Shown here one piece after another: positions 6,111-33,442 of a DNA stretch of 64,000 nt; the stretch's first letter is position 1, and every line of letters starts with the position of its first letter. The position numbers and the translations under genes were made by a program. Origin of the DNA: an uncultured Gammaproteobacteria bacterium (GTDB taxonomy: Bacteria > Patescibacteriota > Patescibacteriia > Patescibacteriales > UBA12465); the NCBI GenBank assembly GCA_964539545.1, contig CAZIJG010000001.1, positions 11,083-75,082 on the forward strand, given 5' to 3'. The notes below the pieces were generated by a model. The model was not told the DNA's origin. It worked only from the letters and a program-made list of their open reading frames with translations, and searched no databases.

Positions 6111-7355
6111 ATGATTTACGACGCAGTAGTAATTGGAGGTGGACCGGCTGGTATAATGGCGGCTGGTAGAGCAAGCGAGCGAGGAGCTCGTGTTCTTTTG
6201 CTTGAAAAGAATAATAAACTAGGTTTAAAACTTTTAGCAACCGGTCATGGTCGATGTAATGTAACAAATACTTCAGCGGATGATAAACAAAAAATAAGTA
6301 TCTACGGTCCTAACTCTAAATTTCTATTCTCAGCTTTCAATAAATTTAGCGTAAATAATGTTTTAAATTTCTTTAATAAATTGGGCGTATCTACAAAAAT
6401 TGAGAATCATGGCCGGGTTTTTCCAGAAAGTGATCAGGCAACGGATATACAACTAGCTCTTATTAAATATTTAGAAAAAGACGATGTTGAAATCAGATAT
6501 AATGCAGAGGTCAAAAAGGTTGTAGGTGTTAACGATAAAATAGATAAAGTTGTATTAATGAATGGTGAAGAAATTTTAAGTAAGAATTTTATTATTGCCT
6601 CTGGAGGAAAGTCATATCCAGACACTGGCTCAACCGGTGATGGCTATACTTGGTTAGCTAACCTTAATCATAGTATTAATACACCAAGACCGGCTTTAAC
6701 CCCGGTAGTGGTGAAAGAAAAGATAGTGGAGCAATTGGAAGGGTTAAGTTTCAAAGATATTGGATTAAATATCTATCAAAACAAAAAAAAGCTTATTAAT
6801 CGTTCAGGAGACATAATATTTACAGCAGATGGGATTAGTGGACCAGCAATTATTGATTTAAGTAGCAAATTGGGTACACTTTTGCCAGGTTTAACTGTCA
6901 TAAAAATAGATTTTTACCCAGAAACTACAAAAAATGAGTTGAAAGAGAAAATGCAACATGATTTTCATCACAGTAATAATAAAATGATAAAGAATTACTT
7001 ATCCGTGTTAACCTCGCCTAGATTAGTATCTGTTATTTTAGAGTTAACTAATATTAATGAAAAGAAACCAGTAAGTACAGTAACAAAGAAAGAGCGCCAA
7101 GGGCTAGTCGATATGTTAAAAGAATTTACCTTGGAAGTTAAAGAATTAAAAGATTTTAACAGAGCCATGATTACAGCCGGGGGACTAGATATAAAAGAAG
7201 TCGATTCAAAGACAATGCGATCAAAACTATATTCAAACCTACTTTTAGCTGGAGAAGTGTTGGATTTAGATGGACCTAGTGGTGGTTATAATCTGCAAAT
7301 TTGCTGGAGCACTGGTTATTTAGCGGGAGATAGTATTGATATAGATAATGGTTGA
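6111..7355 (+). CDS. NAD(P)/FAD-dependent oxidoreductase, HI0933/YhiN/BaiN family
   Basis: N-terminal VVIGGGPAGIMAA dinucleotide fold. Family-typical GGKSYPDTGSTGDGY. Confidence 0.85.
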   Translation: MIYDAVVIGGGPAGIMAAGRASERGARVLLLEKNNKLGLKLLATGHGRCNVTNTSADDKQKISIYGPNSKFLFSAFNKFSVNNVLNFFNKLGVSTKIENHGRVFPESDQATDIQLALIKYLEKDDVEIRYNAEVKKVVGVNDKIDKVVLMNGEEILSKNFIIASGGKSYPDTGSTGDGYTWLANLNHSINTPRPALTPVVVKEKIVEQLEGLSFKDIGLNIYQNKKKLINRSGDIIFTADGISGPAIIDLSSKLGTLLPGLTVIKIDFYPETTKNELKEKMQHDFHHSNNKMIKNYLSVLTSPRLVSVILELTNINEKKPVSTVTKKERQGLVDMLKEFTLEVKELKDFNRAMITAGGLDIKEVDSKTMRSKLYSNLLLAGEVLDLDGPSGGYNLQICWSTGYLAGDSIDIDNG

Positions 7356-7436
7356 CTTTTGTAGTTATTAATTGTACTATGGGCTAGTAATAAACTAGTT
7401 TAGCAACTCAAGAAATTTGAGTTGTTTATTATAATT

Positions 7437-8888
7437 ATGACAAACGAAGTAATATTAAGATTTGAAAATGTAGTTTTTGAATATTTACATAACAAGCCTC
7501 TTTTGAATGAGGCTAATTTTAGTATAAGAACTGGCGCTAAGATGACATTGATGGGACAGAATGGAGCTGGTAAAAGCACTTTATTTAGTTTAATAAAAGG
7601 TGAAAAAAAGGTAAAAGAAGGTAGAATTTCTATTACCAATAGAGCTAGTATTGCCACTGCTCAGCAAATAGTTAATCGAAGTGATTTTGATAAAACAGTA
7701 GAAGAGTATTTTGCTTCATCTTTTGAAATTGTACCAAAAAACTTAAAAAGTGAGATTTCTAAAGTAATGGATGCAGTTAACCTGGTAGTACCAACAGATA
7801 GAATAGTTGGAGAATTATCTGGTGGTCAGCAAGCACGATTACTTTTATCTAATGCTTTGATTCAAAAACCTGATATTCTACTTCTAGATGAGCCAACTAA
7901 TAATCTGGATAAGGCTGGGATTGATCATTTAATACAATTTTTAGTAATGTATGAGAAAACTGTAATTGTCATTTCTCATGATGCTGACTTTTTAAATTGT
8001 TTTACAGAGGGAGTTCTTTATCTGGATGTCTTCACAAAACAAATTGAAGCTTATGTAGGTGATTATTATTCAGTAGTTGCGGAAATTGAATCTCGAGTTG
8101 AAAGAGAACGGAAAAAAAATGCTCAATTAGAAAAATTAATTAAAGATCGAAAAGAGAAAGTTAATTTTTTTGCTCATAAAGGTGGAAAAATGAGAAAATT
8201 AGCTAAAAAAATGAGTGAACAAACTACTGAACTTGAAGAAAATAAAGTTGAGGTTAGAAGGGAAGACAGAACTATTAGAGATTTTACAATTCCGGCTCAG
8301 AACATAACTGGAAACATTGTTACAATTAATCAAGTAAAAGTAATTCAAAATCATGAGCCAGTTCTAAAAAATATTGATAAAGTTTTGAAAAAAGGTTCTC
8401 GTTTATTAATCTCTGGACCTAACGGTATTGGTAAGAGCACTTTGTTACGAGTATTAGTAGATAATCAAACAGAGGGGGCAAAAATCATGAATGGAGTTAA
8501 AGTGGGATACTATAGTCAAGATTTTGCTACTCTCGATTATGATCAAACAGTTTTTGACTCACTAGAAAGTATTCTAGCCGATGGCATTGATACTCAAGAA
8601 ATGCGTGCTGTAGCGGCTGGATTTTTAATAACCGGAGATTTACTAGGTAATAAAGTAGCTCAGCTATCAGAAGGCCAAAAAGGTCTATTATCATTTGCTC
8701 GGTTAGTTTTGATGCGACCGGGACTATTAGTACTTGATGAGCCAACAAATCACATAAACTTTCGTCATATACCTGTTATTACCAAGGCTATCAATGAATA
8801 TGAGGGAGCAATGATTTTAATTAGCCATATGTCTGAGTTCGTGGAAGAGATTATAGTTGATAATTACTTAGATTTAGGTAAACTATAA
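7437..8888 (+). CDS. ABC-F family ATPase (two NBDs, no TMD)
   Basis: NBD1: GQNGAGKST / LSGGQQARL / LLLDEPTNNLD. NBD2: GPNGIGKST / LSEGQKGLL / LVLDEPTNHI. Charged linker between them. ATG 7437 is preferred to TTG 7422. Confidence 0.85.
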   Translation: MTNEVILRFENVVFEYLHNKPLLNEANFSIRTGAKMTLMGQNGAGKSTLFSLIKGEKKVKEGRISITNRASIATAQQIVNRSDFDKTVEEYFASSFEIVPKNLKSEISKVMDAVNLVVPTDRIVGELSGGQQARLLLSNALIQKPDILLLDEPTNNLDKAGIDHLIQFLVMYEKTVIVISHDADFLNCFTEGVLYLDVFTKQIEAYVGDYYSVVAEIESRVERERKKNAQLEKLIKDRKEKVNFFAHKGGKMRKLAKKMSEQTTELEENKVEVRREDRTIRDFTIPAQNITGNIVTINQVKVIQNHEPVLKNIDKVLKKGSRLLISGPNGIGKSTLLRVLVDNQTEGAKIMNGVKVGYYSQDFATLDYDQTVFDSLESILADGIDTQEMRAVAAGFLITGDLLGNKVAQLSEGQKGLLSFARLVLMRPGLLVLDEPTNHINFRHIPVITKAINEYEGAMILISHMSEFVEEIIVDNYLDLGKL

Positions 8889-8890
8889 GT

Positions 8891-9898
8891 ATGAATTTAG
8901 GAAATATAAAAATAGCTTTAGAAGGTCAACCAAAATTTCGTGTTAACCAAGTTTTCACGGCTGTTTTTAGCGACCTAATTTCTAATTGGAACGATAGTAC
9001 AACTCTACCTTTAGCTTTGAGAGAAATCTTAAACACCGAATGCCCATTAGAAATTCAGGCCGAGACATTTGAATCAAAGGGTAGTGATACTGTTAAAGCT
9101 TTAATTACTCTTCATGATGACGCAAAGATTGAAACAGTTTTAATGAGACATAGAGATGGTCGGGCTACGGTATGTGTTTCCTCTCAGGTTGGATGTCCTC
9201 TGGGTTGCAAATTTTGCGCTACCGGTGCAATGGGATATAAAAGGAACCTAGAAGTCAGTGAAATTATTGAACAAGTTTTATTTTGGCAACGTTATCTACA
9301 TAGGCGAGATAGAGGACCAGAAAAAGTTACCAATGTAGTATATATGGGAATGGGTGAGCCGTTTTTAAATTATGATAACGTCATGGAGTCAATAAGATTA
9401 ATTAATGATAAAAGTAGATTTAATATTGGAGCCAGACATATCTCAGTTTCTACCAGTGGTCTAGTTAAAGAAATCAATAAATTTGCTAAGGAAAAAATGC
9501 AAATTAACTTGGCTATTTCATTACATGCTCCAAATGATAAATTACGTTCAGAATTAATGCCTATAAATAAGAAATATTTGTTAACTGAATTAATGACTGC
9601 AATAAAAATATATGTAGAAGATAGCTCTAGACGAGTTATGTTCGAATATTTAATGATAGACGGAATAAATGATAGCGAATATCACGCTAAAGAACTAGTT
9701 AGGCTCATGAATCATCCATTATATGTAGTAAATTTAATCCGCTATAACTCAACTGGAAAATTTAAGCCATCAACTGCACGAGCAATAGATAAATTTAAAA
9801 ATATTTTAATGAGAGCTGGCATTAGAGTAACTCAACGTCATAGTTTTGGTCTAGATATAGACGCTGCTTGTGGGCAGTTGGCTGGAAAAAAGAAATAA
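8891..9898 (+). CDS. rlmN: 23S rRNA/tRNA (adenine-C2)-methyltransferase RlmN (radical SAM)
   Basis: CVSSQVGCPLGCKFCATG radical-SAM cluster motif and RlmN/Cfr-like overall layout. Confidence 0.9.
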   Translation: MNLGNIKIALEGQPKFRVNQVFTAVFSDLISNWNDSTTLPLALREILNTECPLEIQAETFESKGSDTVKALITLHDDAKIETVLMRHRDGRATVCVSSQVGCPLGCKFCATGAMGYKRNLEVSEIIEQVLFWQRYLHRRDRGPEKVTNVVYMGMGEPFLNYDNVMESIRLINDKSRFNIGARHISVSTSGLVKEINKFAKEKMQINLAISLHAPNDKLRSELMPINKKYLLTELMTAIKIYVEDSSRRVMFEYLMIDGINDSEYHAKELVRLMNHPLYVVNLIRYNSTGKFKPSTARAIDKFKNILMRAGIRVTQRHSFGLDIDAACGQLAGKKK

Positions 9899-25984: not shown

Positions 25985-27007
25985 ATGCTTAAAAAAACTA
26001 AAGTAGCCATTAACGGTTTCGGTCGAATTGGCAGAGCCGTTTTCAAAATTATCTTAGAAAAACATCCAAATTTGGATATAGTTGCGATTAATGATTTAAC
26101 CGATCCAAAATCTCTAGCTAATTTATTAAAACATGATACTGCCTACGGTATCTATGATAAAGAAGTTGGAATTAAAGACGGTAAACTAATGATAGGTAAA
26201 AAGGGCATTATAATGCTTAATGATAAAGAGCCAACAAATTTACCTTGGAAAGACTTAGGCGTAGAACTAGTTATAGAATGTACCGGCTTCTTTAGGACTA
26301 AGGATGAGGCTTCTAGACATTTAAAGGCCGGGGCAAAGAAAGTAGTTATTTCCGCTCCTAGCAAAGGAAATAAAAAAATTAAAACTATAGTATTGGGTGT
26401 AAATGAAAAAAAGCTAACTAAAACAGATAACATTATATCCTGTGCTTCATGTACTACAAATTGCCTAGCTCCTGTTACTGAAATTATTAGAGAAAATTTT
26501 GGTATTCAGAAAGCTTTAATGAGCACAATACATGGTTACACTGCCGATCAAAATCTAGTAGACGGTCCTCATAAAGATCCTAGACGTGGTCGAGCAGCTG
26601 CTCAAAATATTGTACCAACAACTACTGGAGCAGCCAAGGCTACTATTGAAACTATTCCTTCCTTAAAAAATAAATTCAACGGCATAGCAGTGAGAGTCCC
26701 TATACTGGTTGGCTCATTAATTGATGCCACCTATGTTCTAAAAAAGAAGACTAACTTGGACAAAGTACATAAAGTCTTCAAAAAAGCGGCCAGATCTGCT
26801 CAGTATAAAGGGATATTAGAAACCACCGAAGAACCACTAGTCTCAACAGATATTATAAAAACATCAGCTAGTTCAATTGTAGACTTTGGTTTCACTCAAA
26901 TTATAGACGGAGACCTACTAAAGATAGTAGCTTGGTATGATAACGAATGGGGCTATAGTAATCGTCTAGCTGATTTAAGTAGTTTATTAGCCCAAAAGTA
27001 TCTCTAA
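25985..27007 (+). CDS. gap: Glyceraldehyde-3-phosphate dehydrogenase, type I
   Basis: INGFGRIGR and the catalytic ASCTTNCLAP. Confidence 0.95.
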   Translation: MLKKTKVAINGFGRIGRAVFKIILEKHPNLDIVAINDLTDPKSLANLLKHDTAYGIYDKEVGIKDGKLMIGKKGIIMLNDKEPTNLPWKDLGVELVIECTGFFRTKDEASRHLKAGAKKVVISAPSKGNKKIKTIVLGVNEKKLTKTDNIISCASCTTNCLAPVTEIIRENFGIQKALMSTIHGYTADQNLVDGPHKDPRRGRAAAQNIVPTTTGAAKATIETIPSLKNKFNGIAVRVPILVGSLIDATYVLKKKTNLDKVHKVFKKAARSAQYKGILETTEEPLVSTDIIKTSASSIVDFGFTQIIDGDLLKIVAWYDNEWGYSNRLADLSSLLAQKYL

Positions 27008-27009
27008 CT

Positions 27010-27999
27010 ATGGATATTTTGAAAAAAATTGAACAAGCCAAATTAGTTGGCAGAGGTGGAGCTTGCTTCCCAGTCGCCACAAAATGGAATTATGTGAAAA
27101 AAGCCGAAGGAAATAAGTATATAGTTGCCAATGGAGCAGAAGGCGAACCAGGCGTTAAAAAAGATGGATACATACTAACTCATCATACTAAGGAAGTAAT
27201 AAACGGAATCAACTTAGCTTTAAAGTTTTTCAAAGCTAAGCGGGTTTTTATTTTTTTAAACCACAATTACACTAACGCGGAATCTCAAATTAAAAAAGAA
27301 ATTGGCAAATTACCAATTGAGATAATCTATAAGCCACAAAATGCTGGTTATATTGCTGGCGAAGAAAGCGCTTTATTAAGTACTTTGGAAAAAAAGAGAA
27401 TTGAACCAAGCATTAGACCGCCTTTTCCAGTAGAATCCGGCTATAAACAATCTCCGACTCTAATAAATAATATCGAGACTTTCTATAACATCTCTTTAGT
27501 TGATAAAAACAAATTTAGTGATAAGCGGTTCTATACTGTTGGCGGAGATTGTTATAAACCAGGAGTATATTGTTTACCAGATAACTGGAGTATCGCCAGA
27601 ATATTAGAAGAAACTAATAATTTTCCTCGTTTTAAATTCTTCATCCAACATGGAGGTCGAGCTAGCGGAGAAGTATTAAATAGCACTCAACTAAACCAAA
27701 AAGTTCGAGGTTGCGGTGCTATAACTATATACAAACAAGATTCTCATGATTCTTTTAACTTTATAAAAAATATTATTAATTTTTATGCCGAAAACTCTTG
27801 TGGTAAATGCACTCCTTGTCGTGAAGGTAGTTATAGATTAAAAAAAATGCTGAGTGGGACTAAAATGAATTGGCCTCATTTTCTAGAATTAATAGATAAC
27901 ATGGAAGCTAGCTCTTTTTGTGCCTTGGGCAGCTCTCTAGCTTTACCCGTTAAAAGTTATTTAAAAAATGTTAATCCAGATTTTAATATTCAATTATGA
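27010..27999 (+). CDS. NuoF-like flavoprotein (FMN/NADH-binding, one 4Fe-4S), minimal 329-aa form
   Basis: GRGGACFPVATKW, GAEGEPG, NAGYIAGEESALL and the N3-cluster CGKCTPCREG...FCALG. Two nt after the gap stop, and a 4-nt ATGA overlap with hydA. Confidence 0.8.
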   Translation: MDILKKIEQAKLVGRGGACFPVATKWNYVKKAEGNKYIVANGAEGEPGVKKDGYILTHHTKEVINGINLALKFFKAKRVFIFLNHNYTNAESQIKKEIGKLPIEIIYKPQNAGYIAGEESALLSTLEKKRIEPSIRPPFPVESGYKQSPTLINNIETFYNISLVDKNKFSDKRFYTVGGDCYKPGVYCLPDNWSIARILEETNNFPRFKFFIQHGGRASGEVLNSTQLNQKVRGCGAITIYKQDSHDSFNFIKNIINFYAENSCGKCTPCREGSYRLKKMLSGTKMNWPHFLELIDNMEASSFCALGSSLALPVKSYLKNVNPDFNIQL

Positions 28000-29735
28000 A
28001 AAAGATTACCTTTAAAATAAATAATAAGAAAATTATTTGCACTCCTGGCACTAGCATCATGGAAGCGGCTAAAGAAAATGGCATATTCATCCCTAGTTTA
28101 TGTTTTCATCCAGATTTACCAGCTAAGGGTAATTGTCGTGTCTGCGTAGTCGAAATTAAAGGTTATAAAAAACTAGTCGCTTCTTGCTCTATGAAAGCTC
28201 AAGAAGGAATGGAAATCAAAACTAACAGTCCTCGAGTAATTAAATCAAGAAACATGAATCTAGAATTAATCTTCGCTGAACATGTAGAAAAATGCCCAAC
28301 CTGTATTAGTCGTATAGATTGCCAGTTATTAAAATTGGCCAAGAGATATAAATTAAAAATTACTGAATTTCCAGATCGTAAAAAATATCGTAAAACATAT
28401 AAATTTGCTAACGCAGTAGAAATAGATGGCTCCCAATGTATTGATTGTGGCTCTTGCACCCAAGCCTGCGAAATATTAACTGGAATCAATTACTTAAAAT
28501 TAAAAGGCAAGGGAAGCAGCCAAGAGATTGTTCCCAGAGAAAAGCCTGATATGTTGTCTGGTTTAGCAGCCAGAAAAAAGGGCTTTGCCTGTGTTTATTG
28601 CGGTCAATGTGCCTTACACTGTCCAGTAGGCTCAGCGCAAGAACAAGTAGATATTCCGGTGATAGAAAAAATGTTGAAGAACAAAAAATCTGATGAAATA
28701 TATATTGCTCAAATCGCTCCATCCATTAGAGTAAGCATCGGAGAAGAATTTGGTATTGAGCCGGGTAAAATAGTAACTGGACAATTAATTGCTGCCCTAA
28801 AAAAAATAGGCTTTGATAAAGTCTTTGATGTCAACTTTGGTGCTGATATCACAACCCTGGTAGAGGCGGACGAATTAATTAAACGTTTGAAAAAGAAAAA
28901 AAGCATTTTACCAATGATGACTTCTTGTTGTCCAGCCTGGGTTAAATATGTAGAATTCTATAGACCAAATTTAATTCCTAATCTAACCACTGCTCGTTCC
29001 CCGCAAATTCATCTAGCGGGAATAATTAAGACCTATTGGGCTAAGAAACACAATGTTAATCCAAAAAAGATTAAGATAGTGGCTATAATGCCTTGTACTG
29101 CCAAGAAATTTGAATCAGCCAGAAAAGATTTAAGAGTAAATGGACTACATCTGGTTAATAATGTTTTAACTACTAGAGAATTAGCTTACTTAGTACACAT
29201 AAATAAGATTAACTTAGCTAAAATCAAACCACAGAAGGGCGACGATTTATTAAGCGATCATACTGGAGCAGCTGCTATTTATGGTGGGACTGGCGGAGTG
29301 ATGGAATCTGCTCTCAGAAGCGCAGGATATTTTCTAAACCCTGATAAACCTAAACTAGGCAAAATTAAGTTTAAAGATGTTAGAGGTTTAGAGGGTGTTA
29401 AAGAAGCTACCGTCAAAATTGGTAATAAAACTTTACAAGTGGCCGTGATTAATGGTTTGGCAAATTTCAATAAAATAGTTGACCAGCTAAAAAAATATCA
29501 TTATATTGAAGTAATGGCCTGTCGCGGTGGTTGTATTGGTGGCGGTGGTCAACCTATCCCGACTAATGATGAAATCAGAAAACAACGAATTAAAGCTTTA
29601 TACAGCATAGATGATAAAAAAAAGCGGAGAAAGGCTCATCAAAATAAAACTGCTTTAGAGATTATAGAATGGTTAGAAAAAAATGATTTAGATCATAAAG
29701 TTCTCCATACTCAATATAAAGAAAAATTTCATTAA
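27996..29735 (+). CDS. hydA: [FeFe]-hydrogenase, M3-type catalytic subunit
   Basis: H-cluster motifs TSCCPAW, MPCTAKKFE and MACRGGCIGGGGQP. N-terminal 2Fe-2S (CFHPDLPAKGNCRVC), His-ligated cluster (HVEKCPTCISRIDC), CIDCGSCTQAC and CVYCGQCALHCP. Confidence 0.9.
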   Translation: MKKITFKINNKKIICTPGTSIMEAAKENGIFIPSLCFHPDLPAKGNCRVCVVEIKGYKKLVASCSMKAQEGMEIKTNSPRVIKSRNMNLELIFAEHVEKCPTCISRIDCQLLKLAKRYKLKITEFPDRKKYRKTYKFANAVEIDGSQCIDCGSCTQACEILTGINYLKLKGKGSSQEIVPREKPDMLSGLAARKKGFACVYCGQCALHCPVGSAQEQVDIPVIEKMLKNKKSDEIYIAQIAPSIRVSIGEEFGIEPGKIVTGQLIAALKKIGFDKVFDVNFGADITTLVEADELIKRLKKKKSILPMMTSCCPAWVKYVEFYRPNLIPNLTTARSPQIHLAGIIKTYWAKKHNVNPKKIKIVAIMPCTAKKFESARKDLRVNGLHLVNNVLTTRELAYLVHINKINLAKIKPQKGDDLLSDHTGAAAIYGGTGGVMESALRSAGYFLNPDKPKLGKIKFKDVRGLEGVKEATVKIGNKTLQVAVINGLANFNKIVDQLKKYHYIEVMACRGGCIGGGGQPIPTNDEIRKQRIKALYSIDDKKKRRKAHQNKTALEIIEWLEKNDLDHKVLHTQYKEKFH

Positions 29736-29736
29736 T

Positions 29737-31167
29737 ATGACACCAGAATACGTATTAGAAACGTTGAAACAACTGAATAAAAAAGGATTTGAAGCCTATG
29801 TTGTAGGAGGCTGTGTTCGCGATATCCTAATGAAAATAAAACCACATGATTGGGATATTACGACCAATGCCACTCCAGAAGAAATTCTTAAGATTTTTAA
29901 AAAAGCTAAATATGAGAACGATTTTGGCACAGTTTTGTTACCAATTAAAGAAAGGATAAAACTAATTGATGTTCTTGAAATTACTACCTATCGCTCAGAA
30001 CAAGGCTATAGTGACAGACGTAGACCGGATGAAGTTAAATTTGAAACTGAATTAGATAAAGACTTAGAAAGAAGAGATTTCACTATCAACGCTTTGGCGA
30101 TGGACAAAGAAGGACACATTATTGATTTATTTGGCGGTTTAAAAGATATTAAAAAAAGAGTAATCCGAGCAGTGGGTGAACCGACCGAACGATTTAAGGA
30201 AGATGCTTTAAGGCTTCTAAGAGCTATCCGATTATCTGCTCAAATGAATTTTAGTATTGAACCTAAAACTGAGAGAGCAATTACTAAAATTGCTGGTAGT
30301 ATTAAATTTATCTCCAAAGAAAGAATTAAAGATGAATTAATTAAAATGATTAAAACTGATCAAGCTGATATAGCCATAAAAAGATTACACGATAATAAAC
30401 TGTTACAATATATTATTCCCGAATTAGAACAGGGTGTTGGAGTAAAACAAAATCATCATCATGTGGATACTGTATTCGTCCATTCCTGGAAGGCTTTAAA
30501 ACATTGCCCTAACAAAGATTGGCGAGTAAAATTTGCCGCCTTACTTCATGATGTTGCTAAACCAAAAACCCGAGTAATGAAAGATGGTCAAGCTACCTTC
30601 TATAACCATGAATATGTAGGCAGCAAAATGACAGATAGAATAATGAAACGACTAAAGTTTTCCAATGAAGATAGAGAAAAAGTAGTTAATCTTGTTAAAA
30701 ATCATATGTTCTACTATAACGTAGGGGAAGTAACTGCCAGTTCAGTACGTAGATTAATAAAAAAGGTTGGAGTAGAGAATCTACAAGATTTAATTGATTT
30801 AAGAATTGCGGACAGATTAGGTTCTAATGTGCCTAAAGCTAAACCATACAAACTTAGACATTTAGAATACATGATGAAAAAAGTGCAACATGACCCGATC
30901 TCCGTGAAGATGTTAAAGATAAACGGTGAAATACTCATGAAAACACTTAAAGTGGCACCCGGACCAAAAATAGGCGCTATTTTAGATGTTCTACTGGGTG
31001 AAGTGATCGAGAACCCAAAATTAAATACTGAGACACAGCTCTTGAATAAAGCTAAGAAGCTAGATAAACTAGATCTAGCTGCTTTAAGAAAACAGGCTAA
31101 AGAATTGATTGAAGAAAAGAGAGAAGAGGATGATACAGCTATAAAAAAAGAGTTTTACGTTAAATAA
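29737..31167 (+). CDS. cca: CCA-adding tRNA nucleotidyltransferase with HD domain
   Basis: GGCVRD, RDFTINA and HD region ALLHDVAKP. Confidence 0.85.
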   Translation: MTPEYVLETLKQLNKKGFEAYVVGGCVRDILMKIKPHDWDITTNATPEEILKIFKKAKYENDFGTVLLPIKERIKLIDVLEITTYRSEQGYSDRRRPDEVKFETELDKDLERRDFTINALAMDKEGHIIDLFGGLKDIKKRVIRAVGEPTERFKEDALRLLRAIRLSAQMNFSIEPKTERAITKIAGSIKFISKERIKDELIKMIKTDQADIAIKRLHDNKLLQYIIPELEQGVGVKQNHHHVDTVFVHSWKALKHCPNKDWRVKFAALLHDVAKPKTRVMKDGQATFYNHEYVGSKMTDRIMKRLKFSNEDREKVVNLVKNHMFYYNVGEVTASSVRRLIKKVGVENLQDLIDLRIADRLGSNVPKAKPYKLRHLEYMMKKVQHDPISVKMLKINGEILMKTLKVAPGPKIGAILDVLLGEVIENPKLNTETQLLNKAKKLDKLDLAALRKQAKELIEEKREEDDTAIKKEFYVK

Positions 31168-31889: not shown

Positions 31890-33041
31890 ATGAAAGTCTA
31901 TTTAGACAATGCGGCTACTACCAAAGTAGACGATAAAGTGGTAGCTAAAATGCAGTCATATTATTTAGAAAAATATGGCAACCCGTCTTCTTTGCACGCT
32001 AAAGGCGAAGAAGCTTTTCAAGAATTACATCAAGCCAAATCTCAGGTAGCTAAACTTCTGAACACTGATACAATTAACTTAATCTTTACTGGTAGCGCTT
32101 CTGAGGCTAATAACTTCATTATTAAAGGCGTAGCTAGAGCTAATAAAGATAAAGGTAAACATATAATCATTTCCAATATTGAGCATCCTTGCGTTCTAGG
32201 ACCGGCTAAGGAACTAACCATGGAAGGTTTTGAAGTTGAGTATATTCCAGTAAATAAAAAGGGGTTGATACAACCTTCTGAGCTTAAAAAAAGATTACGA
32301 AAAGATACTCTTCTAGTATCTATCATGACGGCTAATAATGAAATTGGCACTATTCAAGACATAAAAAAATTAGCTAAATTAACTAAAGCTAATGGCAGTA
32401 TTTTCCATACCGACGCTGTACAATCTGTTCCTGATGTTAAATTAGATATTAAAAACGATAATATAGACTTTCTAACCCTATCTGCTCATAAATTTCATGG
32501 CCCCAAGGGCGTGGGGTTAGCCTGCATTAATCCAAATATTAAAATTAGACCACTAATTAGCGGAAGCGAGCAAAACAAGGGCCTAAGAGCTGGAACTATT
32601 GATGTGCCTGGTATTGTCGGCTTTGCTGAAGCTCTGAAAATAGCTTACCAAGGCAGACAAACTAAAATTAATCAAATAAAGAAACTCCGAAACTATTTCT
32701 ATAATCAACTAGAGAAGGAATTGGGAGATATTTCATTAAACGGAGACAAAGACAAAAGACTAGCCAACAACCTTAACGTTTGCTTTAAAGGTGTTGAAGG
32801 TGAGGCTATACTAGTGGACCTATCCCAAAAAGGTATTTGTGTTTCTACCGGCTCAGCCTGCAGCGCTCACAATCTCAAGGTTTCCTATGTTCTACAAGCT
32901 CTCAGAATAAAATCTAAGTATTTAAATAGTAATATTAGATTTTCTTTGAGCAAATACACTACCAAAAAAGAATTAGATTACACCATTAAAGAAATAAAAA
33001 AAACAATAAAGAGGCTAAAAAACTTTAGCCCTATAAAATAA
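31890..33041 (+). CDS. nifS: Cysteine desulfurase (NifS/IscS family)
   Basis: PLP-Lys SAHKFHGPKG and catalytic Cys loop STGSACSA. Confidence 0.9.
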   Translation: MKVYLDNAATTKVDDKVVAKMQSYYLEKYGNPSSLHAKGEEAFQELHQAKSQVAKLLNTDTINLIFTGSASEANNFIIKGVARANKDKGKHIIISNIEHPCVLGPAKELTMEGFEVEYIPVNKKGLIQPSELKKRLRKDTLLVSIMTANNEIGTIQDIKKLAKLTKANGSIFHTDAVQSVPDVKLDIKNDNIDFLTLSAHKFHGPKGVGLACINPNIKIRPLISGSEQNKGLRAGTIDVPGIVGFAEALKIAYQGRQTKINQIKKLRNYFYNQLEKELGDISLNGDKDKRLANNLNVCFKGVEGEAILVDLSQKGICVSTGSACSAHNLKVSYVLQALRIKSKYLNSNIRFSLSKYTTKKELDYTIKEIKKTIKRLKNFSPIK

Positions 33042-33046
33042 ACAAT

Positions 33047-33442
33047 ATGGCGCTTAACTATACTAAAAAAACTCTCAACCATTTCCTAAAGCCTAAAAAT
33101 ATTGGCGAGATTAAGAACGCTGATGCCTATGCCGAGCTGGGTAACATGGTTTGCGGAGATCAACTGAACTTCTCAATGAAAATAGAGAAGGGAATCATTA
33201 AAGATATTAAATTTATGTCCTTTGGCTGCGCTTCCAATATTGCTACAGCCTCAATCATGACTGAGAAAGTAAAAGGCATGAGTCTGGAGAAAGCTAAAAA
33301 ATTTGACTGGAATACCATTGTTAAAGAATTAGGGGGCTTGCCACAACAGAAAATTCATTGCTCAATCATGGCAGTAGAAGGATTAAAAAAGGTAATTGAT
33401 AATTATGAAGCAAGGAATAAAAAGAAAAAAGTAAAGAAATAA
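33047..33442 (+). CDS. nifU: Fe-S cluster scaffold, NifU N-terminal/IscU-like
   Basis: Three ligand Cys: GNMVCGD, FGCASNIA and HCSIMA. Confidence 0.85.
   Translation: MALNYTKKTLNHFLKPKNIGEIKNADAYAELGNMVCGDQLNFSMKIEKGIIKDIKFMSFGCASNIATASIMTEKVKGMSLEKAKKFDWNTIVKELGGLPQQKIHCSIMAVEGLKKVIDNYEARNKKKKVKK

What the first reader, a model, noticed from the sequence alone, without database searches (positions are those of the whole stretch)
25985..29735. gap, a minimal NuoF-like flavoprotein and an M3-type [FeFe]-hydrogenase form one translationally coupled unit without a NuoE/HydC partner
Seen in sequence:
- The gap stop is at 27007 and the NuoF-like start at 27010.
- The NuoF-like stop overlaps the hydA start (ATGA at 27996-27999).
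- cca follows hydA after 1 nt.
- HydA has all three H-cluster motifs and the full set of accessory-cluster cysteines.
- The NuoF-like protein is only 329 aa. It keeps the FMN/NADH motifs and the N3 4Fe-4S cysteines, but lacks the extra N- and C-terminal Fe-S domains of HydB.
- No NuoE/HydC-like gene is adjacent.

Established knowledge: NAD(H)-linked and bifurcating HydABC hydrogenases use a NuoE-like subunit together with NuoF-like HydB.

Inference: this may be a stripped-down two-subunit NADH:H+ oxidoreductase wired directly to the NADH-producing step of glycolysis. The nifS-nifU pair 2 kb downstream could supply clusters. No HydE/F/G maturases are in the window.
Basis: partly seen in the sequence, partly recalled or inferred. 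Interest (0 to 1): 0.55.

Follow-up and report, generated by a model that had tools for sequence, protein, structure and literature searches.

The report
NuoE-less two-subunit NADH [FeFe]-hydrogenase
An ultra-small (CPR/Patescibacteria) bacterium encodes a hydrogen-producing [FeFe]-hydrogenase next to a pared-down NADH-binding flavoprotein that lacks the usual third (NuoE/HydC) subunit; this pair is conserved, is sometimes fused into one protein, and repeatedly sits beside glycolysis genes, which points to a minimal way of disposing of glycolytic NADH as H2.

Summary
All cofactor motifs are intact. No NuoE/HydC or HydEFG gene lies in the 64 kb.

The window is from a Patescibacteria (CPR) genome. 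The short NuoF is a distinct family of about 30 clusters at 50% identity. It lacks the N-terminal ~40 residues and every extra Fe-S domain.

- It is paired with hydA in 21 of 22 informative related loci.
- A NuoE profile hits 59 of 64 canonical NuoF loci but none of 38 CPR-type loci.
- Two independent natural NuoF(min)::HydA fusion proteins (918 and 885 aa) carry no NuoE domain.
- A glycolytic gene (gap, or pyk, or a tpiA-fba…gap-pgk-eno cluster) flanks the pair in 15 of 26 loci, in four different genomic contexts.
- Sequence markers are of the non-bifurcating type.

Most likely this is a heterodimeric, ferredoxin-independent NADH:H+ oxidoreductase, a new NuoE-free variant of the NADH-dependent [FeFe]-hydrogenases.

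Still untested: the activity itself, whether a NuoE gene lies elsewhere in the genome, and how the H-cluster is matured. I found no paper describing this variant.

The parts
25985..27007 (+). gap: type I NAD-dependent glyceraldehyde-3-phosphate dehydrogenase (340 aa), the NADH-producing step placed directly upstream
   Evidence: TIGR01534 scores 412.6 bits against a cutoff of 367. Pfam finds Gp_dh_N and Gp_dh_C. A gap gene sits next to nuoF-hydA in 14 related loci.
27010..27999 (+). Minimal NuoF-type flavoprotein ('HydB-min', 329 aa): FMN/NADH Rossmann domain, ubiquitin-like (SLBB-type) domain and a helical bundle holding one [4Fe-4S] (N3). It has no N-terminal domain and no extra Fe-S domains.
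   Evidence: PF01512 covers residues 7-162 and PF10589 covers 251-326. The AlphaFold model has pLDDT 85.7 and pTM 0.86. Foldseek gives TM 0.84-0.88 to NuoF, HydB, HoxF and FdsB cores. The protein aligns from Nqo1 residue 52 and from L076 HydB residue 40.
27049..27165 (+). Glycine-rich FMN loop (GRGGACFP, residues 14-21) and NADH-site motif (EGEPGVKKD, residues 44-52)
   Evidence: G14, G17, F20, N41, E44-G48, K51 and D52 are invariant in 25 homologues. K51 corresponds to the non-bifurcating residue at T. maritima HydB position 234 (criteria from PMC7311640).
27346..27366 (+). GYIAGEE motif (residues 113-119) at the flavin site, with Tyr as in non-bifurcating enzymes
   Evidence: G113, Y114, G117 and E118 are invariant. 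Criterion taken.
27799..27921 (+). N3-type [4Fe-4S] ligands C264-x2-C267-x2-C270 ... C304
   Evidence: Invariant in 25 homologues. Aligned to the N3 motif of FdsB and HoxF.
27996..29735 (+). hydA: M3-type group A [FeFe]-hydrogenase (579 aa). Its start overlaps the nuoF-like stop (ATGA).
   Evidence: TIGR02512 scores 437.5 against a cutoff of 406. The best model is NF040763 'NADH-dependent, group A6' at 627 bits, below its cutoff of 765. The best PDB matches are the HydA1 subunits of HydABC complexes, 8a6t_A (457 bits) and 7q4v_A (445 bits), ahead of CpI (392 bits).
27996..28640 (+). HydA N-terminal NuoG-like electron-transfer module: [2Fe-2S] (C36/47/50/64), His-ligated [4Fe-4S] (H96/C100/103/109) and 2x[4Fe-4S] (C148-158, C199-209)
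   Evidence: Pfam finds Fer2_4, NADH-G_4Fe-4S_3 and the Fer4 dicluster domain. All ligands are invariant in 16 CPR HydA proteins.
28701..29726 (+). H-cluster domain (C311 as proton relay; C312, C367, C509 and C513 as ligands) plus the small-subunit-like C-terminus
   Evidence: PF02906 covers residues 236-517 and PF02256 covers 525-576. The motifs are conserved.
31890..33442 (+). nifS-like cysteine desulfurase and NifU/IscU-like scaffold. These are the general Fe-S assembly genes, a possible but not specific supplier of clusters.
   Evidence: PF00266 at 1e-84 and PF01592 at 1e-38. The same positions are kept in L006, L008, L010 and L012.

Best explanation
The nuoF-like gene and hydA encode a two-subunit, cytoplasmic, non-bifurcating NADH-dependent [FeFe]-hydrogenase that works without a NuoE/HydC subunit.

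Proposed mechanism:
1. NADH, for example from the GAPDH encoded immediately upstream, gives a hydride to FMN in the minimal NuoF core.
2. Single electrons pass to its one [4Fe-4S] cluster (N3 type, C264/267/270/304).
3. They then cross the subunit interface into the NuoG-like N-terminal module of HydA: the [2Fe-2S] and/or His-ligated [4Fe-4S], then two [4Fe-4S].
4. They reach the H-cluster, where protons are reduced to H2.

This regenerates NAD+ for glycolysis in a fermentative CPR cell. It is thermodynamically feasible only when H2 is kept low by neighbours or the host. The reaction is reversible.

Shown here: gene structure, intact and conserved cofactor ligands, the fold of the flavoprotein, family-wide absence of a linked NuoE, natural fusions, and recurrent linkage to glycolytic genes.

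Inferred: formation of the complex, the electron path, NADH specificity and the physiological direction.
For: - Strict pairing. nuoF-like is followed by hydA in 21 of 22 informative loci, sometimes with one membrane-protein gene between them. About 29 contig lengths are shared between the top-120 lists of the two proteins.
- Rosetta-stone fusions. P0377 (918 aa) is identical in ENA, Logan and JGI assemblies and is an intact ORF. P0375 (885 aa) is a second fusion. Both are NuoF(min) fused to M3 HydA with no PF01257 domain.
- No NuoE. The profile hits 0 of 38 CPR-type loci but 59 of 64 canonical loci. The N-terminal ~40 residues are deleted.
- Purifying selection on all ligands in both proteins.
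- HydA is closer to the HydA subunits of NuoF-coupled multimeric enzymes than to monomeric CpI.
- Non-bifurcating markers of Losey et al. 2020: there are no extra Fe-S domains; Lys sits at the T. maritima HydB 234 position; Tyr is in GYIAGEE; and the sequence reads GGRASG, not GGPSG.
- The modelled flavoprotein is a complete NuoF core.
- Glycolytic neighbours in four independent contexts.
Against: - There are no biochemical data.
- NADH to H2 is endergonic under standard conditions.
- Only 64 kb of the genome, and +/-10 kb around relatives, could be inspected, so an unlinked NuoE-like gene cannot be excluded.
- No HydE/F/G gene was seen in the window or in any related locus, so maturation of the H-cluster is unexplained.
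- The residue at T. maritima HydB position 232 is Val, which fits neither the bifurcating nor the non-bifurcating class.
- One relative (L008) has Gly in place of the third N3 cysteine.
- A complex model could not be computed.
- 11 of 26 loci have no glycolytic neighbour.
Confidence: 0.65

Rival explanations
1. It is an ordinary trimeric HydABC. A NuoE-like HydC is encoded elsewhere in the genome and joins the complex.
For: Only part of the genome is visible. CPR genomes often scatter genes that are operonic elsewhere. NuoE is nearly universal with NuoF, at 59 of 64 canonical loci.
Against: No NuoE-like ORF lies within 10 kb in any of 38 CPR-type loci. The natural fusions lack the domain. The N-terminal segment of NuoF is deleted in the whole family. 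In canonical systems the gene is almost always adjacent or fused.
Confidence: 0.1
2. The same enzyme works physiologically in the opposite direction. It would be an H2:NAD+ oxidoreductase that takes up environmental or host-derived H2 to make NADH.
For: The reaction is exergonic in that direction. The closest flavoprotein sequence matches in the PDB are the FdsB subunit of a formate dehydrogenase and the HoxF subunit of an NAD+-reducing hydrogenase. Some relatives sit next to NiFe hydrogenase genes (L021).
Against: The repeated linkage is to NADH-producing or lower-glycolysis genes, not to NADH consumers. CPR bacteria are generally fermenters without respiratory chains (background knowledge).
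Confidence: 0.15
3. The two proteins do not form a complex. HydA would be a ferredoxin-dependent monomeric hydrogenase like CpI, and the NuoF-like protein a separate NAD(P)H oxidoreductase that merely shares an operon.
For: The M3 architecture equals that of monomeric CpI. Small ferredoxin genes occur near some loci (L097, L098).
Against: The fusions and the near-obligate pairing argue against it. HydA scores higher to HydABC-type HydA1 than to CpI. A flavoprotein with only FMN and one cluster needs an electron-accepting partner.
Confidence: 0.07
4. The hydrogenase is not catalytically matured because there is no HydEFG. The pair would then serve another redox or sensory role.
For: No maturase gene was found in 64 kb or in roughly 40 related loci.
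Against: All H-cluster ligands and the proton-relay Cys are invariant across 44-60% identical homologues. Archaea and some eukaryotes make active [FeFe]-hydrogenases without HydEFG (PMC11216029).
Confidence: 0.03

Closest known systems
Non-bifurcating NADH-dependent [FeFe]-hydrogenase: Syntrophomonas wolfei Hyd1ABC type. A canonical example is locus L076: HydC 154 aa, HydB 422 aa, HydA 573 aa.
   Same: The HydA is M3 type, 40% identical to the L076 HydA. The HydB has only FMN and one [4Fe-4S]. The NADH- and FMN-site residues are of the non-bifurcating type. The predicted chemistry is ferredoxin-independent NADH to H2.
   Different: There is no HydC/NuoE subunit. The flavoprotein lacks the first ~39 residues and about 49 loop positions (329 vs 422 aa). 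It shares only ~31% identity. The HydA falls below the NF040763 cutoff.
Syntrophus aciditrophicus HydAB ('dimeric' NADH-dependent hydrogenase, characterised; PMC7311640)
   Same: Two polypeptides that make H2 from NADH without ferredoxin.
   Different: Its HydB is a fusion of the NuoE-like and NuoF-like parts (585 aa), so the [2Fe-2S] thioredoxin-like module is still there. The CPR protein has none.
Electron-bifurcating HydABC / Bfu family (Thermotoga maritima, Acetobacterium woodii, Thermoanaerobacter kivui; PMC9304861)
   Same: The HydA subunit is the best PDB match (8a6t_A, 7q4v_A). The flavoprotein core superposes with TM ~0.85.
   Different: It lacks HydC, the N-terminal [2Fe-2S] and the C-terminal 2x[4Fe-4S] of HydB, the GGPSG motif, and the Phe and Met markers. 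It therefore cannot bifurcate by the proposed mechanisms.
Nyctotherus ovalis hydrogenosomal polyprotein hydrogenase (PMC2216082)
   Same: A natural fusion of an [FeFe]-hydrogenase with a NuoF-like module for direct NADH reoxidation. This parallels the P0377 and P0375 fusions.
   Different: The ciliate protein also contains the 24-kDa (NuoE) module (abstract shown). The domain order also differs.
Respiratory complex I NADH module NuoEFG / NAD+-reducing HoxFU
   Same: The same cofactor chain logic applies: FMN, then N3, then NuoG-like clusters. The fold is the same.
   Different: There is no NuoE or N1a cluster, the N-terminus is truncated, the TIGR01959 score of 177 is far below its cutoff of 559, and the output is an H-cluster rather than quinone or a NiFe site.

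Membership tests
[FeFe]-hydrogenase, group A (catalytic subunit HydA) | H-cluster domain with motifs L1 (TSCCPxW), L2 (MPCxxK) and L3 (ExMxCxxGCxxGGGQ) | tested here: met
   Motifs at residues 309, 365 and 507. PF02906 at 2e-85. TIGR02512 scores 437.5 against a cutoff of 406.
[FeFe]-hydrogenase, group A (catalytic subunit HydA) | M3 accessory domains: [2Fe-2S], His-ligated [4Fe-4S] and 2x[4Fe-4S] | tested here: met
   All 15 Cys and 1 His are present and invariant in 16 homologues. Pfam finds Fer2_4, NADH-G_4Fe-4S_3 and Fer4.
[FeFe]-hydrogenase, group A (catalytic subunit HydA) | Dedicated maturases HydE, HydF and HydG in the genome | tested here: inconclusive
   None in the 64-kb window or in about 40 related loci.
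NADH-dependent [FeFe]-hydrogenase 'group A6' (NCBIfam NF040763) | Score above the curated cutoff | tested here: not met
   It is the best-scoring model, but at 627 bits it is below the cutoff of 765.
Non-bifurcating NADH-dependent HydAB(C) (Losey et al. 2020) | Beta subunit without additional Fe-S domains; Tyr at the FMN site; Lys, Ser or Ala at T. maritima HydB position 234; no GGPSG | tested here: met
   Only PF01512 and PF10589 are found. The sequences are GYIAGEE, EGEPGVKKD and GGRASG. Position 232 is Val, which is atypical.
Non-bifurcating NADH-dependent HydAB(C) (Losey et al. 2020) | NuoE-like [2Fe-2S] gamma subunit, separate or fused to beta | tested here: not met
   There is no PF01257-type ORF in the window or in 38 CPR-type loci, and none in the fusion proteins. 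Whether one lies elsewhere in the genome could not be tested.
Electron-bifurcating HydABC / BfuABC | BfuB with a ferredoxin-type 2x[4Fe-4S] domain and an N-terminal [2Fe-2S]; BfuC (IPR002023) in the operon | tested here: not met
   The domains are absent and no HydC is present. The definition is from PMC9304861.
Complex I subunit NuoF (TIGR01959) | Full-length equivalog score, an N-terminal domain, and partners NuoE and NuoG | tested here: not met
   The score is 177 bits against a cutoff of 559, and the match starts at profile position 37. The protein aligns from Nqo1 residue 52. No nuo genes are in the window.
NuoF-fold flavoproteins (Complex1_51K superfamily) | Rossmann-like FMN domain, ubiquitin-like domain and a helical bundle with a CxxCxxC...C cluster | tested here: met
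   The model has pLDDT 85.7. Foldseek gives TM 0.84-0.88 to NuoF, HydB, HoxF and FdsB at E~1e-25.

The most novel reading that the evidence does not exclude
CPR bacteria run the smallest known NADH-linked hydrogenase. It is a NuoE-free NuoF-core:HydA heterodimer, in some lineages a single fused polypeptide, that is genetically hard-wired to glycolysis. It is also matured without the canonical HydE/F/G machinery, either by an unknown pathway or with host-supplied cofactor, as proposed for DPANN and Asgard archaea.
Probability: 0.2. Interest if true: 0.8.

Novelty: new variant of a known kind. Interest (0 to 1): 0.55.

Why it matters
If confirmed, this would be the minimal natural solution for coupling NAD(H) to an [FeFe]-hydrogenase: two subunits (or one fused chain), one flavin, and six Fe-S clusters counting the H-cluster's own [4Fe-4S].

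- It would show that the NuoE/N1a module, conserved from complex I to all characterised NAD-linked hydrogenases and formate dehydrogenases, is dispensable for NADH-to-cluster electron transfer. This bears on the long-debated role of cluster N1a.
- It would give CPR bacteria a concrete, widespread route for fermentative redox balance and H2 release. That matters for interspecies H2 transfer in groundwater and sediments.
- It offers a compact scaffold (about 900 aa, with natural fusions available) for engineering NADH-driven H2 production.
- It flags that current annotation hides the system. The public records call the flavoprotein only a generic 'NADH-ubiquinone oxidoreductase-F ... domain-containing protein' and the hydrogenase '[FeFe] hydrogenase, group A'. 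One CPR survey lists nuoFG under 'electron transport chain'; my guess is that this reflects the same pair.

Tried and rejected
1. I suspected the three ORFs at 6111-9898 (414, 488 and 335 aa, one of them radical SAM) were HydF/G/E. NCBIfam shows they are an aminoacetone-oxidase-family flavoprotein, an ABC-F ATPase and RlmN.
2. I suspected the 128-aa ORF between gap and nuoF in L004 was a divergent NuoE. It is a membrane protein with one Cys and no Pfam hit.
3. I asked whether the genes inserted in relatives could replace NuoE. These are the 237-278 aa DUF975/UPF0259-like membrane protein, the ECF-S-like membrane protein and the TM1266-like regulator. None has a cluster motif, none is in the window, and two of them occur without the hydrogenase in L095 and L096.
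4. I tried to reach HydEFG through the TM1266-like 'iron-only hydrogenase system regulator'. Its CPR homologues never sit next to maturases, so this was inconclusive.
5. I tried to predict the complex as a linker-fused chain with a paired alignment.
6. The genome-contig scan with a single protein returned only 8 loci. The metagenome scan used generic motifs, so 63 of its 80 loci were canonical NuoF. Those were re-used as the positive control for the NuoE profile.
7. Eight literature searches found no description of a NuoE-less HydA-NuoF system in CPR. Subscription-only papers, such as early CPR genomics, were not searchable.
8. My initial view was that gap adjacency only reflected a conserved housekeeping block (rpsB-tsf-PSP1...cca-PPIase-nifSU). 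I revised it after L097, L099 and L101 showed glycolytic linkage outside that block.

Full report
**1. What is in the window**

The window is AT-rich (32-35% GC) and about 89% coding. It consists of housekeeping genes.

The closest named homologues of its proteins come from Patescibacteria/CPR: Pacebacteria, Parcubacteria and Falkowbacteria.

The reported coordinates are exact:
- gap spans 25985-27007.
- The NuoF-like gene spans 27010-27999, after a 2-nt spacer.
- hydA spans 27996-29735, with an ATGA overlap at its start.
- cca starts at 29737, 1 nt after the hydA stop.

Family assignments are secure:
- GAPDH is type I (TIGR01534 above its cutoff).
- The 329-aa protein has only Complex1_51K and NADH_4Fe-4S domains.
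- HydA is a group A, M3-type [FeFe]-hydrogenase (TIGR02512 above its cutoff).

All H-cluster motifs and accessory-cluster ligands are present. They are invariant in 16 related HydA sequences of 44-60% identity. The FMN/NADH motifs and the four N3 cysteines of the flavoprotein are invariant in 25 homologues.

**2. What is absent**

I built a NuoE profile from twelve thioredoxin-like [2Fe-2S] ORFs that sit next to canonical nuoF genes. Spot checks confirmed these as PF01257.
- It hits 59 of 64 canonical NuoF loci, either as a separate gene or as an N-terminal fusion.
- Four of the five misses are contig-end truncations. The fifth, L034, is a short high-GC contig whose ORFs could not be read clearly.
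- It hits nothing in the window or in any of 38 CPR-type loci, even at E<=10.

The window contains no HydE/F/G gene. The only radical-SAM protein is RlmN, and every other ORF was annotated. No maturase appears within 10 kb of the pair in any related locus.

**3. The flavoprotein is a distinct, pared-down NuoF**

- It aligns to T. thermophilus Nqo1 from residue 52, and to a canonical non-bifurcating HydB (L076, 422 aa) from residue 40, with about 49 loop positions deleted.
- Its AlphaFold model (pLDDT 85.7, pTM 0.86) superposes on NuoF, HydB, HoxF and FdsB cores with TM 0.84-0.88. It retains the Rossmann-like FMN domain, the ubiquitin-like domain and the N3 helical bundle.
- A profile search of 1.84 billion representatives shows about 30 clusters (50% identity) of this short type, scoring 544 down to 263 bits.
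- Below that lies a plateau of canonical proteins. In most of these the match begins 22-250 residues into the protein, which means they carry the N-terminal domain or a fused NuoE.
- By the criteria of Losey et al. 2020 it is of the non-bifurcating type: no extra Fe-S domains, Lys at the T. maritima HydB 234 position, Tyr in GYIAGEE, and GGRASG rather than GGPSG.
- It does not meet the definition of the bifurcating Bfu family.

**4. Comparative genomics**

Loci came from the look-up of encoding contigs, a genome scan and a metagenome scan.

- Pairing. nuoF-like is followed by hydA in 21 of 22 informative loci. L026 is the one orphan.
- Inserted gene. In eight loci a 237-278 aa DUF975/UPF0259-like membrane protein lies between the two genes.
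- Frequent neighbours. An ECF-S-like membrane protein and a TM1266-like regulator are common nearby. Both are absent from the window, and both can occur without the hydrogenase.
- Fusions. Two independent natural fusions exist, and neither has a NuoE domain.
  - P0377 (918 aa) has an 8-residue linker. The same gene appears in ENA, Logan and JGI assemblies, and the ORF is intact.
  - P0375 (885 aa) has no linker.
  - Such fusions are classical evidence that the two parts work together physically.

**5. Link to glycolysis**

The block rpsB-tsf-PSP1-gap-nuoF-hydA-...-cca-PPIase-nifS-nifU is syntenic across Falkowbacteria-like genomes. On that basis alone, gap adjacency could simply be inherited synteny. 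Tight spacing is also common in this genome and includes cca.

Three other contexts argue for a specific association:
- L099 keeps gap-nuoF-hydA without the surrounding block.
- L097 places nuoF-hydA inside a tpiA-fba-...-gap-...-pgk-...-eno-pgm cluster.
- The fused gene in L101/L102 starts immediately after the pyruvate kinase stop codon.

In total, 15 of 26 informative loci have a glycolytic neighbour.

**6. Mechanism proposed**

The proposed path is NADH to FMN, then the N3 [4Fe-4S] of the flavoprotein, then the NuoG-like clusters of HydA, then the H-cluster, and finally H2.

In complex I and HydABC the NuoE cluster lies off the main FMN-N3-NuoG path (background knowledge). Its loss is therefore compatible with simple, non-bifurcating NADH:H+ oxidoreduction.

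HydA scores higher against the HydA1 subunits of NuoF-coupled complexes (457 and 445 bits) than against monomeric CpI (392 bits). Its best NCBIfam model is 'NADH-dependent, group A6', although below that model's cutoff.

The reaction is feasible only at low H2, as measured for S. aciditrophicus HydAB (PMC7311640).

**7. Relation to known systems and novelty**

The closest characterised enzymes are the non-bifurcating S. wolfei Hyd1ABC and S. aciditrophicus HydAB. Both retain the NuoE-like module; in the latter it is fused to HydB. The N. ovalis polyprotein also retains it.

I found no paper describing a NuoE-less variant. Public annotation is generic. One CPR survey lists 'nuoFG' under electron transport chain, which may reflect this pair.

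I therefore rate it a new variant of a known kind. It is not a member of the HydABC/Bfu family, and it is not a full member of the characterised non-bifurcating family, because the gamma module is missing.

**8. Limits**

- No activity data exist.
- Only partial genomes were visible, so NuoE or HydEFG genes elsewhere cannot be excluded.
- No complex model could be computed.
- Position 232 is atypical (Val).
- One relative lacks one N3 cysteine.
- The absence of maturase genes near about 40 loci parallels the situation in archaea (PMC11216029) and is the most interesting open thread.

Noticed in passing
L101:10001-12757 (= L102:8809-11565); protein P0377. Also P0375.: Natural single-polypeptide fusions of the minimal NuoF with an M3 HydA (918 and 885 aa). 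The 918-aa gene starts directly after the pyruvate kinase stop codon and is identical in three assemblies.
   Followed up: yes
L021:14378-16163: NiFe hydrogenase small (PF01058) and large (PF00374) subunit genes lie directly downstream of the nuoF-TM-hydA-TM1266-ECFS cluster in a CPR relative. Separately, P0383 (702 aa) is a minimal NuoF fused to a NiFe small-subunit-like domain. The NuoE-less flavoprotein may therefore also serve NiFe hydrogenases.
   Followed up: partly
L008:11010-11780; L012:8473-9207; L009:1333-2085; L010:11025-11804; L021:11092-11805; L007:4518-5354: A 237-278 aa multi-pass membrane protein (weak DUF975/UPF0259 similarity, essentially no Cys) is inserted between nuoF and hydA with tight spacing. 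This hints at membrane tethering of the hydrogenase in some lineages. It is absent from the window.
   Followed up: partly
L002:12764-13297; L027:12703-13215; L019:12763-13293; L030:1387-2001; L096:10449-10991: An ECF-transporter S-component-like membrane protein of about 170-200 aa (PF12822, below cutoff) accompanies nuoF/hydA even in distant lineages. It may correspond to the uncharacterised 'hyd6TM' reported next to archaeal group A hydrogenases (PMC11216029). In L096 it persists together with a TM1266-like gene where gap, nuoF and hydA are missing.
   Followed up: partly
Alignment A1, C-termini of P0020, P0025, P0026, P0047, P0082 and others: Many homologues of the flavoprotein carry a ~20-residue C-terminal tail ending in a conserved ...K(K)xICECF (CxC) motif. 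The window protein lacks it, and its function is unknown.
   Followed up: no
L019:7825-9995: Rrf2-family regulator, SufC-like ATPase and SufBD-like genes sit directly upstream of nuoF-hydA in a distant relative. Here Fe-S assembly genes take the place occupied by gap in the window.
   Followed up: no
L026:9992-10966: An orphan minimal nuoF-like gene (42% identity) with no hydA on either side.
   Followed up: no
window:965-1540 and window:22706-23308: Rubrerythrin (NF045767, 299 bits) and an Fe/Mn superoxide dismutase occur in the same window as an O2-sensitive hydrogenase. Rubrerythrin also sits beside the cluster in L097.
   Followed up: no
window:45833-48313 and window:59229-60227: A VirD4/TraG-like type IV coupling protein (826 aa) and a tyrosine recombinase/integrase. 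A similar TrwB/TraG-like gene lies near the hydrogenase locus in L097.
   Followed up: no
window:35753-37477 and window:54268-56103: Two large ORFs (574 and 611 aa) with no Pfam match. The first looks like a multi-pass membrane protein.
   Followed up: no
window:4962-5669: A 235-aa ORF matches only the C-terminal part of PurH (AICAR formyltransferase region, profile positions ~298-502). It is either a truncated or a stand-alone domain.
   Followed up: no
L008:9998-10999: This relative's flavoprotein reads ACGQCVPGREG, with Gly in place of the third N3 cysteine, and has an extra Cys in FCALCAEAP. This could be an alternative ligand or a sequencing error.
   Followed up: no
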